64,000 bases of DNA, taken from positions 75,854-139,853 of the forward strand of contig JAFDHF010000002.1 in NCBI GenBank assembly GCA_019308905.1, read 5' to 3'. Shown in pieces: positions 47,248 to 64,000 of the stretch. The DNA is from Deltaproteobacteria bacterium (lineage in GTDB: Bacteria; Desulfobacterota; BSN033; WVXP01). Within the stretch, counting starts at the first letter, position 1; each line of letters opens with the position of its first letter. Under the pieces are notes generated by a model. It was not told the DNA's origin. It made no database searches and saw only the letters and a list, made by a program, of their open reading frames with translations. The translations under genes were made by a program, and so were the position numbers.

Positions 47248-47262
47248 AAGGAATCCCAGGTC

Positions 47263-50566: not shown

Positions 50567-50598
50567 AAAACCTAAACGAGACAGGAAGGAGCCGGTTT

Positions 50599-51582
50599 GT
50601 GAAGATACTCTTTTCCACTGACGTTCATGGATCCGATGTCTGCTTCAGGAAATTCCTCAACGCCCTCAAGATCTACAAGGTCGACGTGGGTATACTCCTG
50701 GGCGACCTCTGCGGCAAGATGATAAACCCCATCATCAAACAGCCGGATGGAACGTATATCGTCCATCTCCTCGGAGAAAGGCGGCAGCTCAAGACCGAAG
50801 AGGAGCTCCAAACCGCACAGAAAGAACTCGCTGCCATGGGCAACTACTACATCCTGACCGATCCCGAAGAGGTGGAGGTTCTCAAGGCCGAGGGAAAGAC
50901 CGTTGCCGGAAGGATCGATGAGCGGGCCACTCAGATCTCACTTAGTGCGGGAAAGGTCGAGACCCTGTTCAAGAAACTCGCCCTGGAAAGGCTCGAGAGC
51001 TGGATGAGACTCGCCGAGGAGAGACTGGAAGGCAGCAACATCGAGATGTTCATGGCCCCTGGAAACGACGATATCTTCGAGATGGACGAGGTCCTGGACC
51101 GGTCGACGTACGTAGTGAATGCGGATAATCGAAAAGTGGACGTCAAGGGCCACGAGATGATCACCCTTTCCTGGTCGAATCCCACGCCCTGGGACACACC
51201 GAGGGAGTGCTCAGAGGAGGAACTGGAAGAGAAGATCGAGAAGCTCGTCTCCCAGGTGCAGGACATGGAGACCGCCATCTTCAACTTCCATGCCCCTCCT
51301 CATGGAACCATGCTCGATGAATGCGCCAAGCTGTCCGAGGACCTCGTCCCATCCACGGAGGAGAGTATTTCAGCCGGGAGCGTGGCGGTCCTGAATGCCA
51401 TAAAGAAGTACCAGCCTCTCCTGGGACTCCATGGACACATCCACGAATCCCGGGCCGTGCAAAAAATCGGAAGGACCACCTGTATAAACCCTGGCAGTGA
51501 ATATACAGAAGCAATCTTGAGGGCCGTACTGATCACCCTCGAGAAGAACAAGGTGAAAAACTACATGTTTGTGGGTGGATGA
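50599..51582 (+). CDS. calcineurin-like metallophosphoesterase
   Basis: Metallophosphoesterase motifs (STDVHG, GDL, GNDD, GHIHE). GTG start placed after the hairpin. Confidence 0.7.
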   Translation: MKILFSTDVHGSDVCFRKFLNALKIYKVDVGILLGDLCGKMINPIIKQPDGTYIVHLLGERRQLKTEEELQTAQKELAAMGNYYILTDPEEVEVLKAEGKTVAGRIDERATQISLSAGKVETLFKKLALERLESWMRLAEERLEGSNIEMFMAPGNDDIFEMDEVLDRSTYVVNADNRKVDVKGHEMITLSWSNPTPWDTPRECSEEELEEKIEKLVSQVQDMETAIFNFHAPPHGTMLDECAKLSEDLVPSTEESISAGSVAVLNAIKKYQPLLGLHGHIHESRAVQKIGRTTCINPGSEYTEAILRAVLITLEKNKVKNYMFVGG

Positions 51583-51600
51583 GCGGGGAGAGGACAAGAA

Positions 51601-52443
51601 ATGGAGACATTCAGACTCCCTTCCGAGATTCCGGAAGAAGAGTGGCCTGACCCATCTGTCTTCATCGAGGAGGCAAAGGCCTGCGTCCAGGAGGCCCAGG
51701 AAAAAGGAATAGTCATCAGGATCATGGGCGGTATGGCGATATACCTCCATTCCCAGGAGCATGAAGAACTCTGGAAAAGGCTCGGAAGACTCGGAAAGAA
51801 GGTGTTCACCGACATCGACTACGTCAGTTACGGCAAGTACCGAGCCAAGCTGCTCAAGTTTTTCGAGACCAGAGGATTCACCATAAACCAGAGAATGCTC
51901 TACCTCTACGGGAAGGCCCGGCATATCTACTATGGAAGCAGGATCCCCATGGTGGAGGTCTTCTATGACAAGCTGGAGATGAATCACACCATCCTCTATG
52001 CGGGAAGGCTTGAGGCCGATTCCCCTACCCTGCCCCTTGCCGAGTTGCTGCTCCAGAAGATTCAGATGGTGCACATGAACGAAAAGGACGTCAAGGATAC
52101 CATCGTGCTCCTCCGGGCCCACGAGGTCGGGGATGACGACGATGACAGGATAAACCGCAAGGCGGTGGGTGAGAGGCTTCTCTCCGATTGGGGGTTTTAC
52201 TACACCGCAACAAGCAATCTCAAGAAGGTGAGAGAATCTCTCACCGGCTACGACGCCTTGGATGAACAGGACGTTTCAGTGGTCGACAAGAGACTGGGCG
52301 AGCTCCTCAAGTACCTGGAAGAGGGCCCCAAGAGCGTAAGATGGAAGTTGAGAGCGAAGCTGGGAACAAAGGTGAAATGGTACAACGTCATCGACGACTG
52401 GGATGTCATCAGCAAGGAATCCTCTGAAACCGAGAAAGAGTGA
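51601..52443 (+). CDS. hypothetical protein (280 aa, acidic, no recognisable family)
   Basis: Good ribosome-binding site and codon usage. It contains an acidic DDDDD tract. Confidence 0.5.
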   Translation: METFRLPSEIPEEEWPDPSVFIEEAKACVQEAQEKGIVIRIMGGMAIYLHSQEHEELWKRLGRLGKKVFTDIDYVSYGKYRAKLLKFFETRGFTINQRMLYLYGKARHIYYGSRIPMVEVFYDKLEMNHTILYAGRLEADSPTLPLAELLLQKIQMVHMNEKDVKDTIVLLRAHEVGDDDDDRINRKAVGERLLSDWGFYYTATSNLKKVRESLTGYDALDEQDVSVVDKRLGELLKYLEEGPKSVRWKLRAKLGTKVKWYNVIDDWDVISKESSETEKE

Positions 52444-52483
52444 TAGAGGGGCTTGAATCCGGGTACAAGAGGTCCAGGCCGTT

Positions 52484-53155
52484 ATGTTTCGATCAAAGAG
52501 GGCCCGACAAGACAGGACACCATCGAAACTGGAGCACCTCTGCTATCTGGTTGTACAGCTCGACTCGATCAGGGCCTTCAAGAGGATCGCACTAACGGAG
52601 ATCGAACGATCCTTCCAGGAGATCCACCAGAGCAAGCTCTGGGAGGAGATCCGGCCCGACGTGGAGAAAATCGTCTATTTCCCTTCCACAATCCCTCGCG
52701 CCCTGAAACTCATGCAGGTCTCCGCCCTGCTCAGGCGGCTGTTCCCGATCTGCCTCTTCTCGGTGATTCTCTTTGTGCTCGATCAGGCTGGAATCGTATC
52801 GTTGCCCACTTCACCTGCGGCTTCTTTTGTCTTCATCATTCTCCCCATCGCCATCTTGATCGCTTTCGTCTACGCCGACCTCCTCACGAGGCGCACGATA
52901 ATCCAATACGAACGCAGGCACCCGAATATGCAGACCAAGCAGAAGGAACACATCAAGACCGCCATTGAAAGGCTCATCCAGGAACTGAACAGAGAGATTC
53001 AGGCCGTGGGGAGGAAGCCCGGCAACTACAAGATGGAAGTCTTCTTTACAGATTACAGAGGAATAAACATCGTGAGGGAGAACAGGGCAAGGCTGTCGAG
53101 AAGGAAGTATCCCGTCTATCTCGCCATACCCGCCCCGACGGGGGCGGCCGAATAG
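52484..53155 (+). CDS. hypothetical membrane protein (2 predicted transmembrane helices)
   Basis: Two hydrophobic helices (LFPICLFSVILFVL and FVFIILPIAILIAFVY). No recognisable homology. Confidence 0.45.
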   Translation: MFRSKRARQDRTPSKLEHLCYLVVQLDSIRAFKRIALTEIERSFQEIHQSKLWEEIRPDVEKIVYFPSTIPRALKLMQVSALLRRLFPICLFSVILFVLDQAGIVSLPTSPAASFVFIILPIAILIAFVYADLLTRRTIIQYERRHPNMQTKQKEHIKTAIERLIQELNREIQAVGRKPGNYKMEVFFTDYRGINIVRENRARLSRRKYPVYLAIPAPTGAAE

Positions 53156-53416: not shown

Positions 53417-54718
53417 ATGGAGAGTGGCAAGAAAAGCCGGGAAATGCTGAACAGAGCCCAACAGGTCATCCCCTTGGGGGTTAACTCGAACTTCAGGTAC
53501 TGGGGTGACGACAAGACCCTGATCATCAAAAGGGGCCAGGGAGCCTATATCTGGGACCAGGATGACAGGAGGTACATCGACTACCGCCTCGGTTTCGGCC
53601 CCACCATCCTAGGGCATGGGTATCCCTCGGTCGTCGAGCGGGTAAAGGAGGCCCTGGAGATGGGGAACGTCTTTGCCATGACGAACGAATACGAGATCTC
53701 AGCCGCGGAGAAGATCAAGAAGCTCACAGGAGTAGACCTGGTGAGATACGCGAACTCGGGGACAGAGGCCACCATGCACGCCATCCGGATCGCCCGGGCG
53801 TATACGGGCAGGGACAAGGTGCTCAAATTCGAGGGATGCTACCACGGCTTCCACGACTACACGCTCTGGAACTGCCAACCTCCCATTCCCGGCGCCGGCT
53901 ATAGAAGATCACCGGTGCTCGTGGCACAGGGCTCGGGAATCCCACAGGTCATCGCCCAATTGGTCTATTCCATTCCCTTCAACGACGAGGAACTCCTTGA
54001 GAAAAAGGTGAGAGAGAGCTGGGGAGATATCGCCTGCATCATCATCGAGCCTCTCATGGGAAACACGGCTTCCATCATGCCCAAGAAAGGCTTTCTCGAA
54101 CTCGTCCGAAGCCTCTGCGATCAGTACGGAATCGTCATGATCATGGACGAAGTCAAGACGGGTTTCAGGATCGCAAAAGGCGGGGCCCAGGAATACTTCA
54201 ACATCAAGGCCGACCTCGTGACCTATGCCAAGGCCCTGGGAAACGGCTTCCCCATAGCGGCCATCGGCGGCAAGAAGGAGATCATGGGCGAGATCGGCTG
54301 GCAGAAGATTCCCCACGGCGGAACCTATTGTGCCAATGCCGTGGCCGTCGCTGCCGCCGATGCGACCCTCGACGCCATCGCAGGAGGGGCTCTTGAAAAG
54401 GTCGATGCCCACGGCAGGATCCTGGCCGAGGGGCTCAAGAACGTCTTGAAAGAGAGAGGCGTTCCCGGAATAGTCCAAGGCCCTCCATCCATGCCGGGGG
54501 TGGTCTTCACGGAAAAGGAGGAGGTCCGCGAGTATCGGGACTGGGCCGATTCCGACCACGACACATACGAGGAGGTCATCCTGAAGCTCTTCGAGAAGGG
54601 CGTGATGCCGGACAAGGACTCCAGAGAGCCATGGTTCATCTCGGCCTCCCACAGCGACAGCGATGCGGACCAGGCAATCGGGGCCTTTGACGAAGCCGTG
54701 AAGGAAGTGTTCGGCTGA
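53417..54718 (+). CDS. class III aminotransferase, glutamate-1-semialdehyde-aminomutase-like
   Basis: PLP class III features (GTEATMHAIRIARAYTG and DEVKTGFR with the catalytic Lys). Confidence 0.85.
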   Translation: MESGKKSREMLNRAQQVIPLGVNSNFRYWGDDKTLIIKRGQGAYIWDQDDRRYIDYRLGFGPTILGHGYPSVVERVKEALEMGNVFAMTNEYEISAAEKIKKLTGVDLVRYANSGTEATMHAIRIARAYTGRDKVLKFEGCYHGFHDYTLWNCQPPIPGAGYRRSPVLVAQGSGIPQVIAQLVYSIPFNDEELLEKKVRESWGDIACIIIEPLMGNTASIMPKKGFLELVRSLCDQYGIVMIMDEVKTGFRIAKGGAQEYFNIKADLVTYAKALGNGFPIAAIGGKKEIMGEIGWQKIPHGGTYCANAVAVAAADATLDAIAGGALEKVDAHGRILAEGLKNVLKERGVPGIVQGPPSMPGVVFTEKEEVREYRDWADSDHDTYEEVILKLFEKGVMPDKDSREPWFISASHSDSDADQAIGAFDEAVKEVFG

Positions 54719-54742
54719 AATCCGGAGAAAGGAGGTGAACTC

Positions 54743-56197
54743 ATGCGGAAAGGTCCAGTAGCAGGCACCGAGATGTCGACAGGCTGGGGCCTGAAGACCC
54801 TCACACAGGACGGCCTCGAGAAGATCCATGCGGCCACGCTCGATGTCATGCAGACCACGGGGATCTCGGTGGGGAGCGATGAGGCCCTCGACATCCTGGA
54901 CAAAGGCGGGTGCTGGGTCAACAGGAAAACCCAGGTGGTGAGATTCCCCCCCCACATAGTGAAGGAAGCCCTTTCCACCTGTCCTGGCCGCATCCTGCTT
55001 GCCGGCCGTGATCCGGCCGACGATTTCATGATGGGCGGGCGGGAAGTCGGGTTTACGACCTTTGGAACAGGCGTCCTTGTGGTAGATCCCGAGACAGGAG
55101 AGGTCAGGCCTTCGACAAAACACGACATGGGGATGACAGCCCTTCTGGCAGACGCCATGGAGAACGTGGACGTACTCACAACTCCTGTAGCAGCCAGGGA
55201 CAAGCCCGATTCATCCTACGATCTCCACATGGCCGAGGCGAGTTTTGTCAACTGCTCCAAGCACCTTCACAGCGATGCCGAGGACGGCCAGAGGGCGATA
55301 AAGATCATAGAAATGGCCTCGGCCATCGTGGGAGGCGAGGAACAACTCAAGGCGAGACCGATCGTCTCCTTGGCCATCTGCCCCACGAGCCCTTTACAGC
55401 TCATCGAGCCCATGGCGGAGGTGATCATCGAGGCTGCCAGACACTGGATTCCCATCGACGTCCTCAGCATGGCCATGGCCGGCGCTTCAAGCCCCATCTC
55501 GCTCTCGGGGGCCATGGTCACCCACAACGCAGAGGTCCTTTCGGGTATCGTCCTGGCTCAACTGACCAGCCCCGGCGCCCCGGTGATCTATGGCAGTTCC
55601 ACCACGACCTTTGATATGAAAAGGGGAACCGCGGTCGTGGGGGCGCCGGAACTCGGGATGATAAGCGCCCTGGTGGCGGAGCTTGCCAACTACTACAACC
55701 TTCCGAGCTATGTCGCCGGCGGGTAGGCTGATTCGAAGATATCCGATGCCCAGGCAGGCCACGAGAAGACCGTTACGGCTCTGCTGCCGGCCCTGGCAGG
55801 GGCCAATCTCATCTACGGTCTGGGCATGCTCGAGATGGGCATGACCTTCAGCTTCGGCCAACTGGTCATCGACGATGAGATCGCGGCGATGGTCAAGAGA
55901 GTGGTTGCAGGGGTTTCTGTCGAGGACGAGCCGATGGGTGTGGATCTGATCAAGCAGGTGGGCATAGGGGGTAACTTCCTGACCCAGAGGCACAGCCTCA
56001 GGCACGTGGCCACGGAGCAATCTCAGGTGAGGATCTTCGATCGTCGCATGCGAGGAGCATGGGAGAAGAGAGGATCCAAGGATCTGCTTCAAGTGGCAAA
56101 CGAGAGAGCCCTGGAGTTGCTGAAAACCCACAAGCCCCTTCCGCTACCCGACGGAGTCGAGGAACAGCTAGAAAGGATCGTGGCCAGTGCGGAATAA
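54743..56197 (+). CDS. mttB: trimethylamine:corrinoid methyltransferase (MttB) homolog with an in-frame amber codon (TAG at 55724-55726) at the conserved pyrrolysine position. The predicted full product is 484 aa with Pyl near residue 328.
   Basis: The ORFs 54743..55726 and 55826..56197 are in the same frame and separated by a single TAG with no other stop. Both halves are MttB-family sequence. The TAG position corresponds to Pyl334 of methanogen MttB. Confidence 0.75.
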
Positions 56198-56254
56198 ATC
56201 GCATGAAGGAATCTGTGGTCCGAAGAGAAAGGATTCTCCATCGAGGAGGGAGAA

Positions 56255-57664
56255 ATGACGACCAATATCTTGACCAGGATGGGCGACGGGGAGAGGGTCT
56301 CCATGTTGCCCGACCAAGTCAAAGAGGACCTCTGGGCAGGGACCAGGGATGCGGCCCAGAGGGGTGGAATTCCGGAACTTTCCCAGGAGGAGGTGGAGCA
56401 GCTCTTCGATATTTTTGCCGACACCAACCGCATCGTCAGTGTCCGTCCAGGCCACGAGGTTGTCATGACGGACGATGGCGGTGCCATGTTGCTTGTCTGC
56501 GAGCAGAGCGATGGAGGGGTGGGGATTCCCATGAGCCGGCTCCAGTCGATTCTAACCTATGAGCGGGGTTGCGCGGCCGACACTGCATCGCTCGGACACC
56601 ACGATTACAGCTACAAGGCCGTGAAGCCCCTGGTCTTCTATGAGATGCAGGAGTATTACGCCGCATCTCAGGTAACCACTATCCCCCTCTTTTACGGTTC
56701 GCAGCCCAATCTGGGCCTGTATTACCAGCCTGACGGCCCCTTTCCCAATCCAGCGGATCTTCTCCCCCAGGGCAAGATCAGGGAAGCCAGAGAGACCCAG
56801 GAAAAGGCGGCCGACCGCCTCAGGAAGGACATGGTCTATATCGGCACCAAACTCTACGAGGTCGGCTGCGAGGGCATCAACTTCGATACCGCGGCCTCAG
56901 CCGGGGACGCGGATTTTTGGGCGACCCTGGAGGCCGTGGCCGAACTCAAGGGTGCGGCCCCACACATGGCCGTGGAAGTGGGGATGTCCAGTGAGTTCGT
57001 CCTGGGCATGCACGGCGAGATCAAGTTCGACGGCAAGCGGCTCGCAGGTATGTATCCCCACGAACAGGTAAAGGTCGCGGAGGCTGCAGGGGCGGATATC
57101 TTCGGTCCAGCCGTGAACGTAAACACCACGAAATCGATGCCGTGGAACCTCGCCAGGGCTGTGACCTTTGTCAAGGAGACCGTTCGAGCTGCCAGAATTC
57201 CCGTCCACGTCAACGCAGGCATGGGGGTGGGAGGAGTCCCCATGTTTGAGATCCCTCCTATTGACTGTGTGACCAGGGCATCCAAGGCATTGGTCGAAAT
57301 CGGGAAGGCAGACGGGTTGTAGGTGGGCACGGGGGATCCTTTCGGCATGCCTATGGCCCACATAATGGCTGCGGGTATGGGTGGCATGAGGACCGCCGGA
57401 GATCTGGTGGCCTGGATGCAGATGACCCGGAAGATGAAAATAGGCGAAGCCAAACATTATGTGGCAGAGAGATTGGGCCTGAGACCGGTGGACCTGTCAG
57501 ACGAGGAGGTCATGCGCCGGGTTAGGGAGGAGCTCGGCATAGGCGTGATCACGGCGGTGGCAGGGGATGCTAAAGGAATAGCGGCCAAACTCAAGATCGC
57601 CGAACTGCTCGATATTCGGATCAATTCGGTCGATCTGTTCAAATCCAGGATCGGCTACCCGTGA
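56255..57664 (+). CDS. mtbB: dimethylamine:corrinoid methyltransferase (MtbB, Dimeth_PyL family) homolog with an in-frame amber codon (TAG at 57320-57322) at the conserved pyrrolysine position. The predicted product is 469 aa with Pyl at residue 356.
   Basis: ORFs 56255..57322 and 57323..57664 are contiguous and in the same frame. Strong MtbB-like motifs lie on both sides of the TAG ([29 protein letters not shown]...TAG...[29 protein letters not shown]). Confidence 0.75.
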
Positions 57665-57746
57665 ATTGAGTCCAGAGCGGCGAGATCACTTTTCGTGATT
57701 CAAGGTCACCCGGTGAGAAGAGCTGTTCCAGGGAGGGATTCGCAAC

Positions 57747-58427
57747 ATGAACGAAGAACTCATGGCTGAGGCCAGAAAGTCCATTACGGAAGGCGATAAG
57801 AACAAGGCCGGAGAAATTGCAAGGAAAGGTCTTTCACAAGGACTCGACCCCATGGCGCTTCTTGAGGATGGCTTTATTCCGGCGATAACAGAGGTGGGAA
57901 GACTCTTTGAGCAGGAGGAGATCTTCCTGCCAGAGCTGATGTTGGCCGCCGAGGCGATGAAGACTGCCGCCGCGATCTGTAACGGGGCCCTGCCCAAGGA
58001 AAGGGTGAAGCAGATAGGTCGAGTGGTCATAGGAACAGTCGAGGGCGATATCCACGACATCGGGAAGAGCATCGTTGAATCCTTTCTCTCTGCCCACGGC
58101 TTCGAGGTCCACGATCTTGGCAGGGAGGTACCCACCGATGAGTTCATCAAGAGGGCCGTTGAGCTGAAAGCCGACGTCATCGCCACCAGCGCCATGCTGA
58201 CAACCACCATGGGGGCACAGCAGGACCTGGAGGATGAGCTGAGGAAGAGGTTTCTCCGCGACAGGTTCAAGACGATCATCGGAGGAGCACCTGTGGACCA
58301 GCAGTGGGCGGATACAATCGGTGCTGACGCCTATGCAGAGGATGCCTCTGAGGCCGTGCAGAAGATCAGGGAACTCCTCGGATCCCAGGCCTCCGCGGCC
58401 CCTGAGAAAGGTCGAAAGAATCGGTAA
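57747..58427 (+). CDS. cobalamin-binding corrinoid protein (MtbC/MttC/MtgC-like)
   Basis: N-terminal helical cap plus a B12-binding Rossmann domain with the DxHxxG motif (GDIHDIGK). Confidence 0.85.
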   Translation: MNEELMAEARKSITEGDKNKAGEIARKGLSQGLDPMALLEDGFIPAITEVGRLFEQEEIFLPELMLAAEAMKTAAAICNGALPKERVKQIGRVVIGTVEGDIHDIGKSIVESFLSAHGFEVHDLGREVPTDEFIKRAVELKADVIATSAMLTTTMGAQQDLEDELRKRFLRDRFKTIIGGAPVDQQWADTIGADAYAEDASEAVQKIRELLGSQASAAPEKGRKNR

Positions 58428-58468
58428 AAGGGGTTCAGGCGGCCAAGACCGGAGGGGGGAACTAATTC

Positions 58469-59953
58469 ATGGACACATGGCGAGAGAGGGCCAGAAGCGG
58501 CATAACCCCCATTGTGGTCAGACCTGGGATGAGAATTGAGCTTCTCAGTGGCAGAGAGCTCGAAAGGGTTCACCAGGCTACGCTGACGGTTCTCGGGCAA
58601 AGTGGCGTGAGATTTCCCTATGAAAGGGGTCTCAAGATCTTTGCGGAAGCAGGCGCAAAGGTCGATTTCGAAAGTAAGATCGTCCGGATCCCGGCTGATC
58701 TGCTGATGAGAAGCCTCGCCAACGCGCCGAGAACCATCGCCATGGCTTCCAGAGGCCCCGAGGATCTCGATCTCTATCTGGATGGAACCAGGAGTTACTG
58801 CGGGACCGAGGGGACTGGGCTGGCCGTAGTCGATCTGGAGACTCGCAAGCGAAGGCCTTCTACAAAAAGAGACGTGGCCATGATGGCCCAGATCTGCGAC
58901 TATCTTCCTTCCATCGGCTTTTACTGGCCCATGGTGAGTGCCCGTGACGTCCCTCCGGGGGTGATCTCACTCCACGAACTCGAGGCATCCTTTACCCACA
59001 CGGAAAAACACGTCCATATCATCAGCTGCACAGAGGCGAAGACCGCAGGTTATGCCGTTGAGATGGCCAGAGCCGTTGCAGGCGACAGCGAATCGCTGAG
59101 AAAACGCCCTCCCCTTTCCCTGCTGGTCTGTGCAACTTCTCCACTGACACAGGACAAAGGCTCACTGGAGGCGGCCCTGAGATTCGCCGAGGCGGGACTC
59201 CCTGTATGCTTCTGCACCATGCCGGTCGTGGGCTCCACCGGCCCGGGTTCCATGGCAGGGACCATGATCATGGGAAATGCGGAGATCCTGAGCGCCCTCT
59301 GCCTCATTCAACTGGTCTATCCCGGAGCGCCGGTCTGTTACGCTTTTTTCCACGACATGATAAACCCCTTCACCGGTCAATGCTGGGCCTCGGCGCCCCA
59401 GAAGGCGGGATTTCATACGGCGGTCGTACAACTCGGGCACTACTACAATCTCCCGGTAATGAGCGGCTATGGAGGCACCGACGCTCGCAAGCCGGAAAGT
59501 TGGCAGACAGGGAAAGACAACGCCATCGATGCCCTGTTCTCCTTTCTCACAGGCCCTGACCTTATGCCTTCTCTGGGGCTTCTCGAGGCCTACACTCTTC
59601 TGTACCCGGAGAAGATCCTCTTGGACACCGAGATTTTCAACTCCGTCAAGACCATGACAGAGGGAGTCAGAATCGATGAGGGGGCACTTGCCCTGGATGA
59701 GATCATGGCTGTTGGTCCTGGTGGCCACTTCCTCGACAGGGATTATACCTGCGAGAATCTCCGCAAGCTCTGGCAGCCCGGTGTCGCCAACCAGTGGTCT
59801 CCCCAAGCTGGAGGCTTTCTCGATCCACAGGAGGCTGCAATAGAAAAGATCAGGTGGATTCTTGCCAACCATCACCCGAACCCCCTTGAGGAGAAGGTGG
59901 AGAAAGAGCTCGCGAGGATCATCAGGACAGCCGAGAGAGAACTGCTGGGCTAG
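58469..59953 (+). CDS. MttB-superfamily methyltransferase without an amber codon (non-pyrrolysine paralog, quaternary-amine/glycine-betaine-type MtgB-like)
   Basis: Full-length uninterrupted 494-aa MttB-family protein. It has G at the position aligned to Pyl of the upstream paralog. TAG stop. Confidence 0.85.
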   Translation: MDTWRERARSGITPIVVRPGMRIELLSGRELERVHQATLTVLGQSGVRFPYERGLKIFAEAGAKVDFESKIVRIPADLLMRSLANAPRTIAMASRGPEDLDLYLDGTRSYCGTEGTGLAVVDLETRKRRPSTKRDVAMMAQICDYLPSIGFYWPMVSARDVPPGVISLHELEASFTHTEKHVHIISCTEAKTAGYAVEMARAVAGDSESLRKRPPLSLLVCATSPLTQDKGSLEAALRFAEAGLPVCFCTMPVVGSTGPGSMAGTMIMGNAEILSALCLIQLVYPGAPVCYAFFHDMINPFTGQCWASAPQKAGFHTAVVQLGHYYNLPVMSGYGGTDARKPESWQTGKDNAIDALFSFLTGPDLMPSLGLLEAYTLLYPEKILLDTEIFNSVKTMTEGVRIDEGALALDEIMAVGPGGHFLDRDYTCENLRKLWQPGVANQWSPQAGGFLDPQEAAIEKIRWILANHHPNPLEEKVEKELARIIRTAERELLG

Positions 59954-60047
59954 TCTCGATGGGCGAAGAAGAACCTCCAAAGGGAAGACAAGACATGAAA
60001 AAAGAGGCAGGATTTTCCGGCCTGAGACCCGAGCAAGGAGAATCCAC

Positions 60048-60956
60048 GTGGAGGCGATCGAGATCAGCCGGGAGGCGGAAGCGGGTCTGAAGAAAAGACC
60101 CAAAAGCCTTTTTCCCTGGGAAATACCCTTCTACATGGGGCCGATCACGGTCCTGGTAGTGGTCTTTGTCTTTGCTCCCCTGGTGATCATCCTGTTTTTC
60201 AGCTTCCTGAAAGCAGGCCCTCTGGGCGAGATAGTGTACCGGTTCAACCTCGATAATTTCCGGGCCATCCTTGGAGGCGGCTATGGAAAGGTCTTTCTTT
60301 ACTCCTTTTATCTTGCTGCACAGACAAATCTGGCATGCATCGTCTTGGCCTATCCGCTGGCCTACTTTATCGCGAGGTACGGAGGCAGATGGAAGATCTT
60401 TCTCATCTTCATGGTCATCATCCCCTCCTGGGTGGCCTATCTTATCAGACTTTACGCCTTCAAGACCATAGTGGGAAAACAGGGCCTCATCAACAGCCTC
60501 CTCATCCACCTCGGGCTCATCTCAGCCCCCATCGAGATGCTCTACACACCCTTTATCGTCATGGTCGGCCTGGTTTACACGTGGTTGCCCTTTATGGTTC
60601 TCCCTCTCCATGCCTCCCTGGAAGGGCTCGATCCGGCCCTACTCGAGGCTGCCACGGATCTGGGGGCCACACCCATCCGCCGCTTCTTCAGGGTCACCCT
60701 CCCCCTCACCCGGGGGGGGCTCATCGCAGGATCGATACTCGTGTTCATCCCCACTCTGGGAGACTGGCTCGTTCCCTATCTGCTGGGTGGGTCGAAGGTT
60801 ATGATGGTTGGAAACCTGGTCGCCGAAAAGTTCATCATGCTGGGCAATATCCCGGAGGGCTCCAGCCTAGCCGTCATGCTGGCAGCCACGCTGGTCCTGA
60901 TTCTATACCTTTCCATCAAATGGGGGGGGAAGGAAGCGATGGAGAGAATTCTGTGA
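60048..60956 (+). CDS. ABC transporter permease (PotB/PotH-like)
   Basis: BPD_transp_1 membrane protein. The GTG start at 60048 has an AAGGAG ribosome-binding site. Confidence 0.75.
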   Translation: MEAIEISREAEAGLKKRPKSLFPWEIPFYMGPITVLVVVFVFAPLVIILFFSFLKAGPLGEIVYRFNLDNFRAILGGGYGKVFLYSFYLAAQTNLACIVLAYPLAYFIARYGGRWKIFLIFMVIIPSWVAYLIRLYAFKTIVGKQGLINSLLIHLGLISAPIEMLYTPFIVMVGLVYTWLPFMVLPLHASLEGLDPALLEAATDLGATPIRRFFRVTLPLTRGGLIAGSILVFIPTLGDWLVPYLLGGSKVMMVGNLVAEKFIMLGNIPEGSSLAVMLAATLVLILYLSIKWGGKEAMERIL

Positions 60957-61744
60957 ACCGAAGAAATGTCGCCTCGAAACTCCTCGGCCTGATGTCTTTC
61001 TGCATCTATTTCTTCCTATGGGCTCCGGCTCTTGTCATCATCGTCTTTTCTTTCAGCAGCAATAAGTACGGCGTAAAATGGGAAGATTTCACCACCCGCT
61101 GGTATGTTTTCCTCTTTCACAACATGGATGTGAGAGATGCCCTCTTCCGGAGCCTTGTGGTCGCATCCGTCACGGTCATCGTCTCCACAGTGATAGGAAC
61201 CATCACGGCATACGGCCTCTACAAGTTCCGTTTCAGGGGCAAACAGCTCCTGCGGACATCCATCCTTATTCCAATTGTCTTGCCCAGTGTCGTGACAGGA
61301 GCTTCGTTGCTCGTGTTTTTTACTAGGCTGATACACATCCCCCTGGGATACCCGAGTATCATCCTGGCCCACATAACCTTCAGTACGCCCCTGGCCGTAT
61401 TTGTCATCCTCGGGAGAATGCAGAGAATAGACTGGGCCTGGGAAGAGGCCGCACTCGACCTGGGAGCAAACCGGGTCCGCACTTTCCTGAGAGTGACCGG
61501 GCCCCTCTTGCTACCGGCCATCATAGCCTCGGCGGTTCTGATCTTTCCATGGTCCTTTGACGATTTCGTTATCACTTATTTTGTGGCGGGAATCGGTACC
61601 ACGACTCTACCGATCTATGTGTTCTCCCAGATTCGGTTCGGCGCCACCCCTGTCATCAATACCATCGGGACGCTCTTTGTGGCCGTGACCATAGGAGCGC
61701 TCATCGTTTTTCGGCTGGTAGAGAAGAAGGGGGAATCCATTTAG
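60953..61744 (+). CDS. ABC transporter permease (PotC/PotI-like)
   Basis: BPD_transp_1 membrane protein. Its GTG start overlaps the upstream stop. TAG stop. Confidence 0.75.
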   Translation: MNRRNVASKLLGLMSFCIYFFLWAPALVIIVFSFSSNKYGVKWEDFTTRWYVFLFHNMDVRDALFRSLVVASVTVIVSTVIGTITAYGLYKFRFRGKQLLRTSILIPIVLPSVVTGASLLVFFTRLIHIPLGYPSIILAHITFSTPLAVFVILGRMQRIDWAWEEAALDLGANRVRTFLRVTGPLLLPAIIASAVLIFPWSFDDFVITYFVAGIGTTTLPIYVFSQIRFGATPVINTIGTLFVAVTIGALIVFRLVEKKGESI

Positions 61745-61922
61745 GGAAGGCGGATCTGGGGGAGAGAGACCAGGCCTCTTAGTCCACCTTCACGAAAGGG
61801 GGTGAGAGAAGAGCTTTCGGTATGGAGACCACATGGATCAGGAGAAGATTGATTCTTGAACAAAGGCTCTGTTCCATGAAGCCCTTGCAGAAGTAAGAAC
61901 CTGCAGGAAGGAGGTCACTCAA

Positions 61923-63056
61923 ATGAAGATGAAGAATCTCGGCAAGGTTGGCATGGCTTTTTTCTTCTCGATTGTTTTCACCATGGGTGTGCTGTCCGGC
62001 GCCCTGGCCGAAGGCAAATACAAGGATTACCCGGTACCAAAGGCCTGCATGGATCAGGTCCGCAAGGAGGGGAGCAGGCTTTTCATCTACGACTGGGCCG
62101 AGTGGTGGCCCGAGGATCTGTTTGCCAATTTCACAAAGGAATTTGGCGTAAAGATCACGAGGGATCATTTTGCGGACTCAGAGGAGATGGTGACAAAGAT
62201 CAAGCTCAATCCCAAGGCCCCCTACGACCTTGTCACAGGCATAGGGCCTGAACATGTGATGCGGCTGAAGGGGTTGGGCCTGGTCCGGCAGCTCAACCAT
62301 GACTGGCTTCCCAATGTGGATGCCTATCTGGAAGACCAATACAAGAAGCTACCCTATGATCCGGGCAACCATTTTCAGATCGGCGATTCTGTCTACTTTA
62401 CGACCTACACGTACAACTCGAAATACGTGGACCCCAACGACCCCTTGATCCCCTCGTGGAAGCTGCTTTTCGAGGGCAAGAAGTACGCAGGCAAGATTAC
62501 CATGATCGACAACATGTTCGAGACTGTCGGCACGGCCTTGAAGTATCTCGGATACTCGTACAACTCTGTGAACGAGAAAGAGCTGGAAGAGGCAAGAAAG
62601 GTTCTGCTCAAGCAGAAACCAATGGTGATGGCTTACGATTCCTGGCCGAGGCGACTCCTGGTGGAAGAGGAGGCCTGGATCTCGCACCTGTGGGTCGGAG
62701 ACAGTTGGCTCCTCCATCAGGATATGCCCACTATACTGGGGGCCCTGCCGACAGAGGGGACTTTTATGGCCCTGAACACGGACTTTCTTCCCATAGGCGG
62801 TAAACATCCGGCGGCGGCACACCTGTTTCTCAATTATCTTTTCCGGACGGATGTGAACGCAAAGCTGATCCAATGGATCGGCTATCCTCCTGTCCACAAA
62901 CACGTCATGGAGCTGATGTCCGATGAGATGAAGAAATGGCCCGGCTTCATCATCAAACCGGAATATGCCAAGAAGTGTGACATCTTCGATATCAAGGCTG
63001 TTACCGGAAGGGGAAGAGAGCTGAGAGCTAAGATATGGGAGGAGCTGAAAAAATAG
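61923..63056 (+). CDS. ABC transporter substrate-binding protein, PotD/PotF (spermidine/putrescine) family
   Basis: Signal peptide, SBP_bac_1/8-like fold, and an AGGAAGGAGG ribosome-binding site. Confidence 0.8.
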   Translation: MKMKNLGKVGMAFFFSIVFTMGVLSGALAEGKYKDYPVPKACMDQVRKEGSRLFIYDWAEWWPEDLFANFTKEFGVKITRDHFADSEEMVTKIKLNPKAPYDLVTGIGPEHVMRLKGLGLVRQLNHDWLPNVDAYLEDQYKKLPYDPGNHFQIGDSVYFTTYTYNSKYVDPNDPLIPSWKLLFEGKKYAGKITMIDNMFETVGTALKYLGYSYNSVNEKELEEARKVLLKQKPMVMAYDSWPRRLLVEEEAWISHLWVGDSWLLHQDMPTILGALPTEGTFMALNTDFLPIGGKHPAAAHLFLNYLFRTDVNAKLIQWIGYPPVHKHVMELMSDEMKKWPGFIIKPEYAKKCDIFDIKAVTGRGRELRAKIWEELKK

Positions 63057-63080
63057 CTCCTCTGCCGTCTCTGATACAGT

Positions 63081-63111
63081 GGGGAGGGGGGATTTCTTTG
63101 TTCCCCCCTCC
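63081..63111 (+). other. GC hairpin (gggagggggg ... cccccctccc) between the potD-like and potA-like genes
   Basis: Inverted repeat read directly from the sequence. Confidence 0.4.
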
Positions 63112-63202
63112 CTGCTGGGGGGGCTTTGTAGTGCCTTGGGCGAGCAAGAGGAAAGCGCCGGAATCCTCTTGTTCTACTTTGCAGGACGAAGGGTCATAAG
63201 GG

Positions 63203-64000
63203 ATGAAAATTGGGAACGGCAAACCGCCAGGCGCTGGCCAAACAGGACTCGCCCTGGAGGTAAGAGACGCGGTAAAACGGTTTGGAGAAATCACGGCGGT
63301 CGACCATGTAAGCCTGGCCATCAGGGAAGGGGAGATATTCTCGCTTCTCGGCCCCAGCGGTTGCGGAAAGACCACTCTCCTCCGGATTGTGGCAGGCCTG
63401 GAAACGCCGGACGAGGGTGATGTCCTGATCGCCGGGAGGGTGGTCAACAACGTGCCTCCTTACAAGAGAGACTGCAGCATCGTATTCCAGCAGCTGGCCC
63501 TTTTCCCCCACATGTCGATCTTCGACAACATCGCCTTTGGTCTGGTCGAAAGGAGGGTGGCCAGGGAGGAAATCAGGCAGAGGGTTTTGGAGGTGCTTGC
63601 CTTTGTCAACCTGGAAGGAATGGAAACCAGGAGGCCGAGCCAGCTCAGTGGCGGCCAGCAACAGCGGGTCGCTCTGGCACGTTCTCTGGTTCTGAAGCCC
63701 AAGGTGCTGCTCCTTGACGAACCTCTCGCATCCTTGGACCGGAAGTTGAGAAAGGAGATGCAGGTCGAACTGAAGAGAATCCAGCGGGAGGTGGGAACAA
63801 CCTTTCTCTATGTTACCCATGACCAGAAGGTGGCACTCAGCCTTTCCGATAGGATCGGTGTGATGAAAGACGGAAGGGTCGTTCAGATAGGGACATCGAG
63901 CGAGATATACGAGACCCCTAAGACCACCTTTGTAGCTTCTTTCATGGGAGCAACCAACATTTTCCTGGGAGAGATGATCTCCAGGGGGAATGGAAAGATC
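63203..64000 (+). CDS. ABC transporter ATP-binding protein (PotA-like), 3'-truncated by the window end
   Basis: Walker A (GPSGCGKTT), Q-loop, signature (LSGGQQQR) and Walker B (LLLDEP). The reading frame is open to the end of the window. Confidence 0.8.

What the first reader, a model, noticed from the sequence alone, without database searches (positions are those of the whole stretch)
53417..64000. Composite methylamine/quaternary-amine demethylation locus: aminotransferase, Pyl-MttB, Pyl-MtbB, corrinoid protein, non-Pyl MttB paralog, PotBCDA-type importer
The module combines three substrate-specific methyltransferases around a single corrinoid protein. They are a trimethylamine-type enzyme with Pyl, a dimethylamine-type enzyme with Pyl, and an MttB-superfamily enzyme without Pyl (glycine-betaine, carnitine or proline-betaine type). 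It is followed directly by a Pot-type ABC importer rather than the BCCT or MttP-type carriers usually linked to such genes. Missing from the window are the partner MtbA/MtgA-type methylcorrinoid:THF or CoM methyltransferase, a RamA-type reductive activase, and pylTSBCD. The arrangement suggests stepwise demethylation of an imported quaternary amine to TMA, then DMA, and onward. The Pot-family substrate-binding protein may be specialised for a methylated amine. That gene combination is not standard.
Basis: inference. Interest (0 to 1): 0.7.

Follow-up and report, generated by a model that had tools for sequence, protein, structure and literature searches.

The report
Methylamine demethylase operon with dedicated importer
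A sulfate-reducer-type bacterium carries a recurring operon that joins three vitamin-B12-dependent amine demethylases (two needing the rare amino acid pyrrolysine) to a remodelled polyamine-type import pump and amine-degrading enzymes. This points to an unrecognised methylated amine as food for marine anaerobes.

Summary
Window 53417-64000 encodes, all on the + strand: a class-III aminotransferase, MttB and MtbB each with one in-frame TAG at the pyrrolysine position, one corrinoid protein, a non-Pyl MttB paralog, and PotB/PotC/SBP/PotA-like genes (PotA is cut by the window end).

- The importer is not a separate polyamine system. Its gene follows the non-Pyl MttB gene after 43 nt with no terminator signal.
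- The pairing of this MttB clade, this binding-protein clade and this aminotransferase recurs in dozens of MAG and metagenome contigs (Desulfobacterales, Spirochaetes and others).
- The linked binding proteins have lost PotD's key W255, D257 and D168.
- The non-Pyl enzyme lacks the Arg/His pair that anchors the acidic group in characterised betaine and phosphocholine enzymes. Its substrate is therefore unlikely to be glycine betaine, carnitine or proline betaine.
- A chain from quaternary amine to TMA to DMA is chemically possible only for tetramethylammonium, and it is unproven here.
- Agmatinase, or PAD-like plus AguB elsewhere, follows the transporter. Together with the aminotransferase this points to a cationic methylated amine of polyamine or agmatine type.

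The substrate remains unknown. I rate this a new variant of a known kind, of moderate interest.

The parts
53417..54718 (+). Class-III (HemL/GntE-like) PLP aminotransferase; a conserved core partner of the importer and the non-Pyl MttB
   Evidence: PF00202 231 bits. NCBIfam GntE 550.5 bits against cutoff 525; hemL TIGR00713 382 against 527. Best PDB matches are GSA aminomutases, 288 bits. Orthologs at 62-73% identity lie beside the MttB clade or the SBP in L009, L014, L016, L019, L029, L030, L033, L034, L037, L040, L041, L043, L046-L050 and L069-L071.
54743..56197 (+). Pyrrolysine-type trimethylamine:corrinoid methyltransferase MttB; TAG (Pyl) codon at 55724-55726
   Evidence: TIGR02369 723 bits against cutoff 525. 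48% identical to M. barkeri MttB. Keeps G108, T109, M243, Pyl328 and Y358, equivalent to G110, T111, M249, Pyl334 and Y364 (PMC9842639). TAG conserved in 14 of 14 orthologs.
55724..55823 (+). Rfam PYLIS_3 (mttB) match starting at the TAG
   Evidence: 81.7 bits against gathering score 38, E 3.7e-15.
56255..57664 (+). Pyrrolysine-type dimethylamine:corrinoid methyltransferase MtbB; TAG (Pyl) codon at 57320-57322
   Evidence: PF09505 693 bits. TIGR02368 582 bits against cutoff 369. TAG conserved in 23 of 23 homologs.
57320..57419 (+). Rfam PYLIS_2 (mtbB) match starting at the TAG
   Evidence: 82.6 bits against gathering score 36, E 1.5e-18.
57747..58427 (+). Cognate corrinoid (B12-binding) protein; the single methyl acceptor encoded in the locus
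   Evidence: PF02607 and PF02310. TIGR02370 226 bits against cutoff 215. DxHxxG motif DIHDIG at residue 101.
58469..59953 (+). Non-Pyl MttB-superfamily methyltransferase of a distinct clade that lacks the acid-group anchor of betaine-type enzymes
   Evidence: PF06253 247 bits. 28% identical to MtgB, 29% to M. barkeri MttB, 32% to the neighbouring Pyl-MttB. Has T116, M331, G336, P367 and Y375 at MtgB Y97, R312, the Pyl column, H348 and F356. The clade holds more than 120 clusters at 55-69% identity.
59997..60956 (+). PotB-like ABC permease (start uncertain: 59997, or 60048 as called by JGI)
   Evidence: PF00528. NCBIfam PotB 234.5 bits against cutoff 348. The gap to the MttB paralog is 43 nt with no terminator-like site.
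60953..61744 (+). PotC-like ABC permease; overlaps the PotB stop by 4 nt
   Evidence: PF00528. NCBIfam PotC 206.5 bits against cutoff 326.
61923..63056 (+). PotD/PotF-family periplasmic substrate-binding protein with a remodelled pocket and a signal peptide
   Evidence: PF13416 66.5 bits. NCBIfam PotD 119.5 bits against cutoff 582. Best PDB match is a putrescine-binding periplasmic protein, 7xjm, 127 bits. Pocket: W58, A59, E60, W61, E200, W257 and Y321 are kept. PotD D168 becomes N197, W255 becomes A283, D257 becomes N285 and Y85 becomes E110.
63102..63123 (+). GC-rich hairpin after the SBP gene; a possible intra-operon attenuator (weak evidence)
   Evidence: Terminator-like site. The total count of such sites is at chance level (12 found, 9.5 expected).
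63203..64000 (+). PotA-like ABC ATPase, cut by the window end. Its 380-aa form, then agmatinase, then an Fe-S protein follow on the near-identical contig L001.
   Evidence: PF00005 130 bits. NCBIfam PotA 349.5 bits on the 266-aa fragment. On L001: PotA 14734-15876, agmatinase 15949-16905 (NF002564 311 against 302; TIGR01230 204 against 174), then an ORF from 16902.
50542..53155 (+). Three genes upstream: a metallophosphoesterase-like gene and two of unknown family. They are conserved directly upstream of the aminotransferase in two other contigs. Membership in the operon is uncertain.
   Evidence: Same order in the P0003 contig and in L100. Weak Metallophos match only; no family for the other two. 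A 261-nt gap with a hairpin at 53234-53253 separates them from the aminotransferase.

Best explanation
This is one copy of a recurring operon for uptake and anaerobic use of cationic methylated amines.

Uptake. A PotABCD-derived ABC importer has a binding protein that lost the acidic and Trp residues PotD uses for the aminopropyl end of spermidine. I infer that it brings in an N-methylated amine with no carboxylate or phosphate group. The amine most likely carries a second amino or guanidino function, that is, a methylated diamine, polyamine or agmatine-type compound.

Demethylation. The non-Pyl MttB paralog removes a methyl group from the quaternary nitrogen onto the Co(I) form of the single corrinoid protein. 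The canonical Pyl-MttB and Pyl-MtbB feed methyl groups from trimethylamine and dimethylamine, or from the tertiary and secondary stages, into the same corrinoid protein.

Onward transfer. Methyl-corrinoid is passed on by a second methyltransferase. The corrinoid is kept reduced by a RamA-type activase, and UAG is decoded by pyl genes. All of these are encoded outside the window.

Carbon skeleton. The aminotransferase, together with agmatinase (or PAD-like plus AguB in other genomes) and aldehyde oxidoreductases, deals with the demethylated primary amine.

Shown: gene identities, Pyl recoding, conserved linkage, and the residue changes in the binding protein and in the MttB paralog.
Inferred: co-transcription, the substrate class and the order of reactions.
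For: Gene identities. Pyl recoding.

Linkage in the window and close relatives.
- Gene-to-gene gaps are 24-82 nt from the aminotransferase to the non-Pyl MttB, then 43 nt to PotB, with no terminator-like site there.
- The same gene order occurs in a contig whose MttB paralog is only 68% identical.

Linkage seen from the MttB side.
- The clade (52-69% identity) sits beside the SBP in 7 of 15 genome loci.
- It sits beside the aminotransferase in 6 of 15 and beside Pyl-MtbB in 9 of 15.
- The taxa span Desulfobacterales, other Thermodesulfobacteriota, Spirochaetes and others.

Linkage seen from the SBP side.
- 9 of 11 loci with an SBP of the N197/N285 type and at least 3 kb of upstream sequence carry the MttB clade upstream.
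- About 20 of 80 loci show the pair despite many short contigs.
- L064 has three SBP paralogs interleaved with MttB-family genes.

Binding-protein specialisation.
- D168N, W255A and D257N, with gains of Y/F281 and F288, occur in the linked subgroup.
- Relatives not linked to methyltransferases (L068-L071) keep Asp at the D257 position.

MttB paralog.
- MtgB R312 and H348 are replaced by Met and Pro across the clade (role of these residues from PMC13080624).
- None of 19 other MttB paralogs within 10 kb of this SBP family has Arg at that column, and 13 have Glu.

Amine and guanidine processing.
- Agmatinase follows PotA here and in the P0003 contig.
- PAD-like plus AguB follows PotA in L025, L047/L050 and L053/L054.
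- The methyltransferase-free relatives L070/L071 have SBP-PotBCA-AT with an arginase-family gene and ALDH; L071 also has AOR.
Against: - No ligand or activity was measured, and the substrate is unknown.
- I found no literature describing abundant natural trimethylated diamines or agmatines.
- Roughly half of the genome loci with the MttB clade lack the transporter within 10 kb.
- Two SBP loci with long upstream flanks (L026, L055) lack the methyltransferase.
- Residue inferences rest on sequence alignment at 28-30% identity, not on a structure.
- The Pyl enzymes look fully canonical, so they may simply use free TMA and DMA.
- Promoter and terminator scans are at chance level, so they cannot prove co-transcription.
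Confidence: 0.5

Rival explanations
1. Amine-scavenging island. The Pot-like system, aminotransferase and agmatinase form an ordinary agmatine or putrescine uptake and catabolism module. They sit next to, and are perhaps co-regulated with, an independent TMA, DMA and quaternary-amine methyltransferase module, because these amines co-occur in decaying biomass. No shared substrate is involved.
For: - Agmatinase reaches equivalog cutoffs, and AguB reaches its cutoff in L047.
- The methyltransferase-free loci L070/L071 have SBP-PotBCA-AT with an arginase-family gene and ALDH; L071 also has AOR.
- The window holds further amine and aldehyde catabolic genes upstream.
- The Pyl enzymes are canonical.
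Against: - The SBP subgroup linked to methyltransferases has lost D168, W255 and D257 of PotD, while the unlinked subgroup keeps Asp at the D257 position.
- The MttB paralog lies between the transporter and the aminotransferase in many loci, with gaps of tens of nucleotides.
- L064 pairs one SBP paralog with each MttB paralog.
- The adjacency holds across phyla.
Confidence: 0.25
2. Tetramethylammonium chain, which is the only chemically valid form of the first reader's idea. The importer takes up tetramethylammonium. The non-Pyl MttB converts it to TMA, Pyl-MttB converts TMA to DMA, and Pyl-MtbB converts DMA to methylamine. All three load the one corrinoid protein.
For: - The gene set matches the three consecutive steps, with one corrinoid protein.
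- The MttB paralog has no acid-group anchor, and the binding protein has lost the H-bonding Asp residues, as expected for a small quaternary cation.
- The same QMA to TMA to DMA logic is documented in Methanococcoides (PMC13044021).
Against: - It does not explain the conserved aminotransferase, agmatinase, or PAD-like plus AguB.
- Many loci have the MttB paralog with Pyl-MtbB but no Pyl-MttB nearby, for example L005, L006, L022 and L029.
- The only characterised tetramethylammonium enzyme is a non-Pyl MtmB homolog, not an MttB homolog.
- No MtmB gene lies in the locus.
Confidence: 0.12
3. Single-molecule pathway. A trimethylated diamine, polyamine or agmatine analogue is demethylated stepwise on the same nitrogen. 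The non-Pyl MttB acts on the quaternary stage. The Pyl-MttB paralog acts on the tertiary stage and the Pyl-MtbB paralog on the secondary stage. The resulting primary amine is then removed by the aminotransferase.
For: - This gives every conserved gene a role, including the aminotransferase and the agmatine-hydrolysing enzymes.
- The SBP keeps the W-x-E-W end of the PotD site but loses the acidic and Trp residues at the other end, as expected for an asymmetric ligand with one free and one methylated nitrogen.
- MttB paralogs near related SBPs often carry Glu where betaine enzymes carry Arg.
- Marine Deltaproteobacteria carry up to five Pyl-MttB copies per genome (PMC8318568).
Against: - The Pyl enzymes here keep all catalytic residues and score far above the equivalog cutoffs for TMA and DMA enzymes.
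- No Pyl enzyme is known to accept bulkier amines.
- Such substrates are not documented as abundant natural products.
Confidence: 0.1
4. Betaine-type system. The non-Pyl paralog is an MtgB, MtcB or MtpB-like glycine-betaine, carnitine or proline-betaine demethylase.
For: - It belongs to the MttB superfamily and lacks Pyl.
- Such paralogs in Deltaproteobacteria have been read as glycine betaine methyltransferases (PMC8318568).
Against: - The Arg312/His348 anchor is absent: Met and Pro replace them in 25 of 25 and 24 of 25 aligned clade members.
- It is only 28% identical to MtgB, no closer than to Pyl-MttB.
- Its transporter partner is of the polyamine type, not the betaine (OpuA/ProX/BCCT) type.
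Confidence: 0.03

Closest known systems
Methanosarcina-type MttB/MttC and MtbB/MtbC pyrrolysine methylamine methyltransferase systems, and their counterparts in marine Deltaproteobacteria (Kivenson et al. 2021, PMC8318568)
   Same: - In-frame UAG at the Pyl position.
- Catalytic residues G110, T111, M249 and Y364 are conserved.
- A TIGR02370 corrinoid protein is present.
- A non-Pyl MttB paralog sits in the same locus, as noted for the Deltaproteobacteria-bbl genomes.
- Pyl lies at codon 328 here, against position 327 of 485 in those genomes.
   Different: - One corrinoid protein serves three methyltransferases.
- No MttP permease, MtbA, RamA or pyl genes are adjacent.
- The locus is fused to a Pot-type ABC importer, an aminotransferase and agmatinase. 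I did not find that link in the papers I read.
Characterised non-Pyl MttB-superfamily quaternary-amine methyltransferases: MtgB (glycine betaine), MtcB (carnitine), MtpB (proline betaine), MtyB (gamma-butyrobetaine) and MthB (phosphocholine)
   Same: - Same fold family (PF06253).
- No pyrrolysine.
- Adjacent corrinoid protein.
- Presumably direct methyl transfer from a quaternary nitrogen to Co(I).
   Different: - The Arg312/His348 acid-group anchor and Tyr97 are missing (Met331, Pro367, Thr116).
- It resembles Pyl-MttB at G-T and Met249 but has Gly at the Pyl column.
- It is 28% identical to MtgB.
- Its transporter partner is PotD-like.
E. coli PotABCD (spermidine/putrescine) and PotFGHI ABC importers
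   Same: - Four-component architecture.
- The best family and PDB matches for all four proteins.
- The binding protein retains W34, E36, E171, W229 and Y293 equivalents.
   Different: - All four score below the NCBIfam equivalog cutoffs (SBP 119 against 582).
- D168 becomes N, W255 becomes A, D257 becomes N and Y85 becomes E.
- New aromatic residues appear at positions 281 and 288.
- The genes are embedded in a methyltransferase operon.
MtqB/MtqC tetramethylammonium and choline system of Methanococcoides (PMC13044021)
   Same: - It demethylates acid-free quaternary amines.
- It feeds TMA to Pyl-MttB and DMA to Pyl-MtbB, the same reaction logic as one reading of this locus.
   Different: - MtqB is a non-Pyl MtmB homolog, not an MttB homolog.
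- It is archaeal and CoM-dependent.
- The passages I read describe no ABC importer, aminotransferase or agmatinase partners, and the word 'transporter' does not occur in the main text.
Agmatine/putrescine catabolic modules: agmatinase SpeB, or AguA/AguB, with a class-III putrescine aminotransferase and an aldehyde dehydrogenase
   Same: - Agmatinase above its equivalog cutoffs.
- AguB in sister loci.
- A class-III aminotransferase.
- AOR and ALDH nearby in the window and in L071.
   Different: - The aminotransferase is HemL/GntE-like, not PatA/SpuC-like.
- The PAD-like protein is far below the AguA cutoff (64 against 483).
- The module is interleaved with corrinoid methyltransferases.

Membership tests
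Pyl-dependent trimethylamine methyltransferase MttB | Scores above the curated equivalog cutoff (TIGR02369) | tested here: met
   723.3 bits against cutoff 525, with X at the TAG.
Pyl-dependent trimethylamine methyltransferase MttB | In-frame UAG aligned with Pyl334 of M. barkeri MttB and conserved in orthologs | tested here: met
   Codon 328 aligns with Pyl334. TAG is present in 14 of 14 orthologs at 55% identity or more. PYLIS_3 scores 81.7 bits.
Pyl-dependent trimethylamine methyltransferase MttB | Catalytic environment: Gly110-Thr111, Met249 and Tyr364 | tested here: met
   G108, T109, M243 and Y358. The residue roles come from PMC9842639.
Pyl-dependent trimethylamine methyltransferase MttB | Genome encodes pylTSBCD so that UAG can be read as Pyl | not testable with these tools
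   None found in the 64-kb window.
Pyl-dependent dimethylamine methyltransferase MtbB | Above the equivalog cutoff (TIGR02368), with a conserved in-frame UAG | tested here: met
   582.3 bits against cutoff 369.1. TAG is present in 23 of 23 homologs. PYLIS_2 scores 82.6 bits.
Methyltransferase cognate corrinoid protein (MttC/MtbC/MtgC type) | B12-binding cap plus Rossmann domains, DxHxxG motif, above the TIGR02370 cutoff | tested here: met
   PF02607 and PF02310. 226 bits against cutoff 215.3. DIHDIG at residue 101. It is below the MtbC (202 against 350) and MtgC (196 against 310) equivalog cutoffs, so the subtype is open.
Betaine or phosphocholine-type non-Pyl MttB (MtgB, MtcB, MtpB, MtyB, MthB) | MttB-superfamily fold without pyrrolysine | tested here: met
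   PF06253 246.6 bits, no internal stop, and Gly336 at the Pyl column.
Betaine or phosphocholine-type non-Pyl MttB (MtgB, MtcB, MtpB, MtyB, MthB) | Basic anchor for the substrate's acidic group: Arg312, with His348 less strictly (PMC13080624) | tested here: not met
   Met331 (25 of 25 aligned clade members) and Pro367 (24 of 25) occupy these columns.
Betaine or phosphocholine-type non-Pyl MttB (MtgB, MtcB, MtpB, MtyB, MthB) | Phylogenetic grouping with a characterised member | tested here: inconclusive
   28% identity to MtgB and 29-32% to Pyl-MttBs. Sequences of MtcB, MtpB, MtyB and MthB could not be obtained with these tools.
PotD/PotF polyamine-binding protein | Scores above the NCBIfam equivalog cutoff | tested here: not met
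   PotD 119.5 against 582; PotF 78 against 636.
PotD/PotF polyamine-binding protein | Spermidine-site residues of E. coli PotD, with E171, W255 and D257 the most critical (site list from my own knowledge of the PotD literature) | tested here: not met
   W34, E36, E171, W229 and Y293 are kept. D168 becomes N, W255 becomes A, D257 becomes N, Y85 becomes E and S83 becomes G.
   Aromatics W58, W61, W257 and Y321, plus the subgroup-specific Y/F281, F288 and F/Y158, are present. Their three-dimensional arrangement was not examined.
GntE (guanitoxin biosynthesis transaminase) | Above the NCBIfam cutoff | tested here: met
   550.5 against 525.
GntE (guanitoxin biosynthesis transaminase) | Located in a gnt biosynthetic cluster of a cyanobacterium (requirement stated from my own knowledge) | tested here: not met
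   The context is a catabolic operon in a Deltaproteobacteria MAG, and no other gnt-like genes were seen. The name is best treated as an over-extension of the model.
HemL (glutamate-1-semialdehyde 2,1-aminomutase) | Above the TIGR00713 equivalog cutoff | tested here: not met
   382.2 against 527.3; the PRK00062 subfamily model gives 396.4 against 398.
Agmatinase (gene just beyond the window, L001 15949-16905) | Above the NCBIfam cutoffs | tested here: met
   NF002564 311.2 against 302; TIGR01230 203.8 against 174.3.

The most novel reading that the evidence does not exclude
The PotD-derived binding-protein clade (N197/A283/N285 type) and the Arg-less non-Pyl MttB clade together define an undescribed anaerobic pathway. 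In it, N-methylated di- or polyamines or agmatine-type cations are imported and demethylated on a corrinoid protein. Pyrrolysine MttB and MtbB paralogs may take the tertiary and secondary amine stages of the same molecule, after which a HemL/GntE-like transaminase removes the nitrogen. That would be the first acid-free substrate class for the MttB superfamily. It would also be the first indication that Pyl enzymes act on amines other than TMA, DMA and MMA.
Probability: 0.2. Interest if true: 0.8.

Novelty: new variant of a known kind. Interest (0 to 1): 0.55.

Why it matters
Thousands of non-Pyl MttB paralogs in marine anaerobes have no known substrate. All five characterised MttB-superfamily members use substrates with an acidic group. 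This locus offers three linked handles on a different substrate class:
- a transporter binding protein that can be ligand-screened;
- a methyltransferase with its own corrinoid partner next door;
- a conserved transaminase and guanidine hydrolase that constrain the substrate's skeleton.

Identifying the substrate would add a route by which sulfate reducers and spirochaetes compete with methanogens for methylated amines in sediments. It would also correct routine annotations such as 'trimethylamine methyltransferase', 'spermidine/putrescine transporter' and 'GntE'.

Tried and rejected
- Promoter and terminator consensus scans of 52900-64000 found 4 promoter-like and 12 terminator-like sites, against 3.5 and 9.5 expected. 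They neither prove nor refute co-transcription. The only relevant point is that no site lies between the MttB paralog and PotB.
- A sigma-54 motif search was at chance level: 20 matches against 20.6 expected.
- An Rfam scan found no riboswitch in front of the operon.
- A phylogeny against MtcB, MtpB, MtyB and MthB could not be made.
- I tried to extend beyond the window. The 168-kb NCBI contig was not returned, only an 18-kb JGI twin. An exact look-up of the SBP failed.
- Literature searches for MttB together with polyamine or agmatine, and for trimethylputrescine, methylagmatine and similar names, found nothing relevant.
- I rejected the GntE/guanitoxin reading of the aminotransferase, because the context is catabolic and no gnt genes are present.
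- I rejected the pseudogene reading of the split MttB and MtbB ORFs, because TAG is conserved in every ortholog and PYLIS matches are present.
- I did not run structure prediction. The tools return no coordinates, so the pocket could not have been inspected.

Full report
**1. Observation**

- Pfam and NCBIfam identify a class-III aminotransferase at 53417-54718.
- MttB lies at 54743-56197 and MtbB at 56255-57664.
- A two-domain B12-binding corrinoid protein lies at 57747-58427, followed by a second MttB-family protein at 58469-59953.
- Two BPD_transp_1 permeases are most similar to PotB and PotC (about 59997-60956 and 60953-61744).
- An SBP_bac_8 protein most similar to PotD lies at 61923-63056, and a PotA-like ATPase runs from 63203 off the window end.

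MttB and MtbB each contain one in-frame TAG, at 55724-55726 and 57320-57322. With X at that codon, they score 723 and 582 bits against the curated equivalog models; the cutoffs are 525 and 369.

The TAGs are genuine recoding sites.
- The MttB TAG aligns with Pyl334 of the M. barkeri enzyme.
- The residues around it that the structural paper calls essential are conserved: Gly110-Thr111, Met249 and Tyr364 (PMC9842639).
- Every ortholog I could align in other contigs has TAG at the same codon: 14 of 14 for MttB and 23 of 23 for MtbB.
- Rfam's PYLIS_3 and PYLIS_2 models match starting exactly at the two TAGs.

TAG is nevertheless the ordinary stop of 10 of 48 genes in the window, including the non-Pyl MttB, PotC and the binding-protein gene.

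None of the roughly 50 ORFs scanned is a URO-D or pterin-type methyltransferase, a RamA-type activase or a pyl gene, and ARAGORN finds no tRNA.

**2. Source and surroundings**

The non-Pyl MttB sequence is on record from an NCBI MAG labelled Deltaproteobacteria bacterium (168-kb contig) and from a JGI metagenome contig. The JGI twin, L001, continues past the window end. PotA is 380 aa there, followed after 72 nt by an arginase-family gene and then by an overlapping ORF. The arginase-family gene passes both agmatinase cutoffs (311 against 302; 204 against 174). In a related contig the following ORF is a 354-aa Fer4 protein.

Upstream in the window are several groups of genes.
- A LIV-type ABC system, two polysaccharide-deacetylase-family genes, an M20 deacylase and an M24 hydrolase.
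- A divergent PAD-family protein at 47263-48567 (64 bits against an AguA cutoff of 483).
- An amino-acid permease, a metallophosphoesterase-like gene and two genes without a family.

Further upstream lie aldehyde:ferredoxin oxidoreductases, an aldehyde dehydrogenase, another class-III aminotransferase, hydantoinase A/B and a cobamide salvage operon. Two cobalamin riboswitches are present.

**3. Is the importer part of the methyltransferase system?**

That test is not met. The gap between the MttB paralog and PotB is 43 nt, and no terminator-like site lies there. The consensus scans as a whole are at chance level, so they carry little weight. Comparative evidence is stronger.

*Searching from the MttB side.* The paralog belongs to a large clade, with more than 120 clusters at 55-69% identity.
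- A contig whose paralog is 68% identical has the same order: metallophosphoesterase-like, two unknowns, AT, Pyl-MttB, Pyl-MtbB, corrinoid protein, paralog, a second Pyl-MttB/MtbB pair, PotB, PotC, SBP, PotA, arginase-family, Fer4 protein.
- A Spirochaetes MAG has Pyl-MtbB, MatE, M24, another MttB, corrinoid protein, SBP, two permeases, ATPase, the paralog, a class-III aminotransferase and an aldehyde dehydrogenase.
- Among 15 genome loci, orthologs of the window's SBP, aminotransferase and Pyl-MtbB lie within 10 kb in 7, 6 and 9 loci respectively. The taxa are Desulfobacterales, other Thermodesulfobacteriota, Spirochaetes, Aminicenantes and Eubacteriales.
- One locus (L002) keeps only a PotC fragment next to the paralog.

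*Searching from the SBP side.* A metagenome scan returned 80 loci.
- About 20 show the SBP next to the same MttB clade, despite many short contigs.
- The usual orders are Pyl-MttB, Pyl-MtbB, paralog, AT, SBP, PotB, PotC, PotA, or AT, Pyl-MtbB, paralog, SBP and so on.
- L064 interleaves three SBP paralogs with four MttB-family genes.

**4. The binding protein is not an ordinary PotD**

It scores 119 bits against a PotD cutoff of 582. I aligned it to E. coli PotD. The list of spermidine-site residues comes from my own knowledge of the PotD structure and mutagenesis work.
- It keeps W34, E36, E171, W229 and Y293.
- It replaces D168 by Asn, W255 by Ala, D257 by Asn, Y85 by Glu and S83 by Gly.

Across 77 homologs the N197/A283/N285 pattern is confined to the subgroup at about 60% identity or more. 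That is the subgroup linked to the MttB clade. Of 11 such loci with at least 3 kb of upstream sequence, 9 carry the clade gene.

Relatives without methyltransferases differ. In L068-L071 the SBP keeps Asp at the D257 position. There the SBP-PotBCA-AT genes lie with an arginase-family gene and ALDH (L070, L071) and, in L071, AOR.

The linked subgroup has also gained aromatic residues next to the lost Trp and Asp: Y/F281, F288 and F/Y158. I read this as one sub-site being remodelled from an H-bonding acidic site into a roomier, less acidic and more aromatic one. That is what a methylated nitrogen would need. This is inference from alignment, not from a structure.

**5. The non-Pyl MttB is not betaine-type**

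Picking et al. 2026 (PMC13080624) show the following.
- In MtgB, Arg312 and His348 hold the carboxylate of glycine betaine, and Tyr97 and Phe356 hold the quaternary nitrogen.
- Arg312, and less strictly His348, are conserved in MtcB, MtpB, MthB and MtyB. All of their substrates carry an acidic group.

In the window protein these columns are Met331, Pro367, Thr116 and Tyr375. Met is present in 25 of 25 aligned clade members and Pro in 24 of 25.

The protein is 28% identical to MtgB and 29-32% to Pyl-MttBs. It shares the Gly-Thr and Met249 features of Pyl-MttB but has Gly at the Pyl column and Pro at Tyr364.

I also examined 19 further MttB paralogs found within 10 kb of this SBP family. None has Arg at the Arg312 column, and 13 have Glu. 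The associated methyltransferases therefore appear adapted to substrates without an acidic group, and some perhaps to substrates with a second positive charge.

The only characterised enzyme for acid-free quaternary amines (tetramethylammonium and choline) is MtqB, a non-Pyl MtmB homolog (PMC13044021).

**6. The aminotransferase and the guanidine hydrolases**

The aminotransferase is HemL-like. Its best PDB matches are GSA aminomutases. It just passes NCBIfam's GntE model, 550 against 525. PGAP already names some homologs GntE, but the context is catabolic.

It is a core partner. Orthologs at 62-73% identity sit beside the paralog or the SBP in many loci. They also sit beside the transporter in methyltransferase-free loci, with ALDH and, in L071, AOR. 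Elsewhere one ortholog sits next to a sodium:solute symporter and a saccharopine/carboxyspermidine-dehydrogenase-family gene.

Downstream of PotA two non-homologous arrangements occur.
- Agmatinase follows PotA in the window's twin and in the P0003 contig.
- A PAD-like gene plus a bona fide N-carbamoylputrescine amidase (444 against 410) follows it in L025, L047/L050 and L053/L054. The same pair lies upstream in L009.

These are two routes for the agmatine-to-putrescine step. This suggests that an amine carrying a guanidino or amino group is handled in the same operon.

**7. Best explanation and rivals**

I commit to a coupled system.
- The remodelled Pot-type importer brings in a cationic, acid-free methylated amine, probably carrying a second amino or guanidino group.
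- The non-Pyl paralog takes a methyl group from the quaternary nitrogen to the shared corrinoid protein.
- Pyl-MttB and Pyl-MtbB add methyl groups from TMA and DMA.
- The aminotransferase and agmatinase process the skeleton.
- The second methyltransferase, the activase and the pyl genes lie elsewhere. URO-D-type genes occur near the operon in L003, L029 and L100.

I give the statement as a whole a confidence of about 0.5.

The rivals are listed below with my estimated probability for each.
- Independent agmatine/putrescine and methylamine modules that merely sit side by side (0.25). The residue changes specific to the linked SBP subgroup weaken this reading.
- A tetramethylammonium to TMA to DMA chain (0.12).
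- A single-molecule stepwise demethylation that uses the Pyl enzymes on bulkier amines (0.1).
- A betaine-type enzyme (0.03).

**8. Comparison with what is known, and novelty**

Pyl-MttB, Pyl-MtbB and non-Pyl paralogs in marine Deltaproteobacteria are already described (PMC8318568). Each protein family here is known.

I could not find two things described. The first is the conserved coupling of an Arg-less MttB clade to a PotD-derived importer, a HemL/GntE-like transaminase and agmatine-hydrolysing enzymes. The second is the matching residue changes in the binding protein.

I class this as a new variant of a known kind. Its interest is moderate (0.55), and higher if the substrate proves to be a new class.

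Noticed in passing
window 11319-11493 (+) and 18443-18633 (-): Two cobalamin riboswitches (99 and 67 bits). One lies upstream of a TonB-dependent receptor (11727-13838). The other lies upstream of a cobamide salvage and lower-ligand operon, cobT-cobD-cbiZ-cobU-cobS (14199-18323, minus strand). Corrinoid supply genes therefore sit about 35-40 kb from a corrinoid-dependent operon.
   Followed up: partly
window 50542-53155: A metallophosphoesterase-like gene and two genes with no Pfam or NCBIfam family lie directly upstream of the aminotransferase. The same trio, in the same order, precedes the aminotransferase in the P0003 contig and in L100. Their function is unknown.
   Followed up: partly
window 58469-59953, 60953-61744, 61923-63056 and seven other genes: TAG is the normal stop codon of 10 of 48 genes in the window, including three genes of the operon itself. 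UAG must therefore be read both as stop and as Pyl in the same transcript. Read-through of the non-Pyl MttB stop would add only about 14 residues before a TGA.
   Followed up: partly
window 53417-54718 and homologs P0184, P0223: NCBI's pipeline names homologs of this aminotransferase 'guanitoxin biosynthesis transaminase GntE' in Spirochaetaceae and Desulfobacterales MAGs. The contexts seen here are catabolic amine operons without other gnt genes, so the name looks like an over-extension of the model cutoff.
   Followed up: partly
L064 (Ga0209978_10000153), 1-20759: One contig carries three paralogs of the PotD-like binding protein interleaved with four MttB-family genes, two corrinoid proteins and one set of permease and ATPase genes. 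It looks as if each methyltransferase had its own binding protein sharing one translocator.
   Followed up: partly
L002 11448-11828: A fragment of a PotC-like gene (residues 89-215, 77% identical) lies directly after the MttB paralog, with no other transporter genes nearby. It looks like the remnant of a deleted importer.
   Followed up: no
window 42755-48567: This run of hydrolase genes comprises two polysaccharide-deacetylase-family genes, an ArgE/DapE-family M20 deacylase, an M24 protein and a divergent PAD-family protein. The M24 protein's best NCBIfam match is ectoine hydrolase DoeA (161 bits, far below cutoff). All sit downstream of a LIV-type ABC system. It may be a separate pathway for an N-acylated or guanidino compound.
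   Followed up: no
window 18660-37268 (minus strand): A further nitrogen-compound catabolic block on the opposite strand. It holds an aldehyde dehydrogenase, an acyl-CoA synthetase-like AMP-binding enzyme, a class-III aminotransferase and two aldehyde:ferredoxin oxidoreductases. It also holds hydantoinase/oxoprolinase A and B subunits and a saccharopine-dehydrogenase-family gene. An AsnC-type regulator (29355-29885, + strand) lies within the block.
   Followed up: no
L100 2233-3141; L029 19613-20833; L003 19995-21011: URO-D-family (MtbA/MtaA-like) genes lie within about 10 kb of the operon in three other contigs. They are candidates for the missing second methyltransferase. None is present in the window.
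   Followed up: partly
loci within 10 kb of the SBP family (e.g. L023, L025, L029, L044, L053, L091): Other MttB-superfamily paralogs near this binding-protein family often carry Glu where betaine-type enzymes carry the carboxylate-binding Arg312 (13 of 19). This hints at substrates with a second positive charge.
   Followed up: partly
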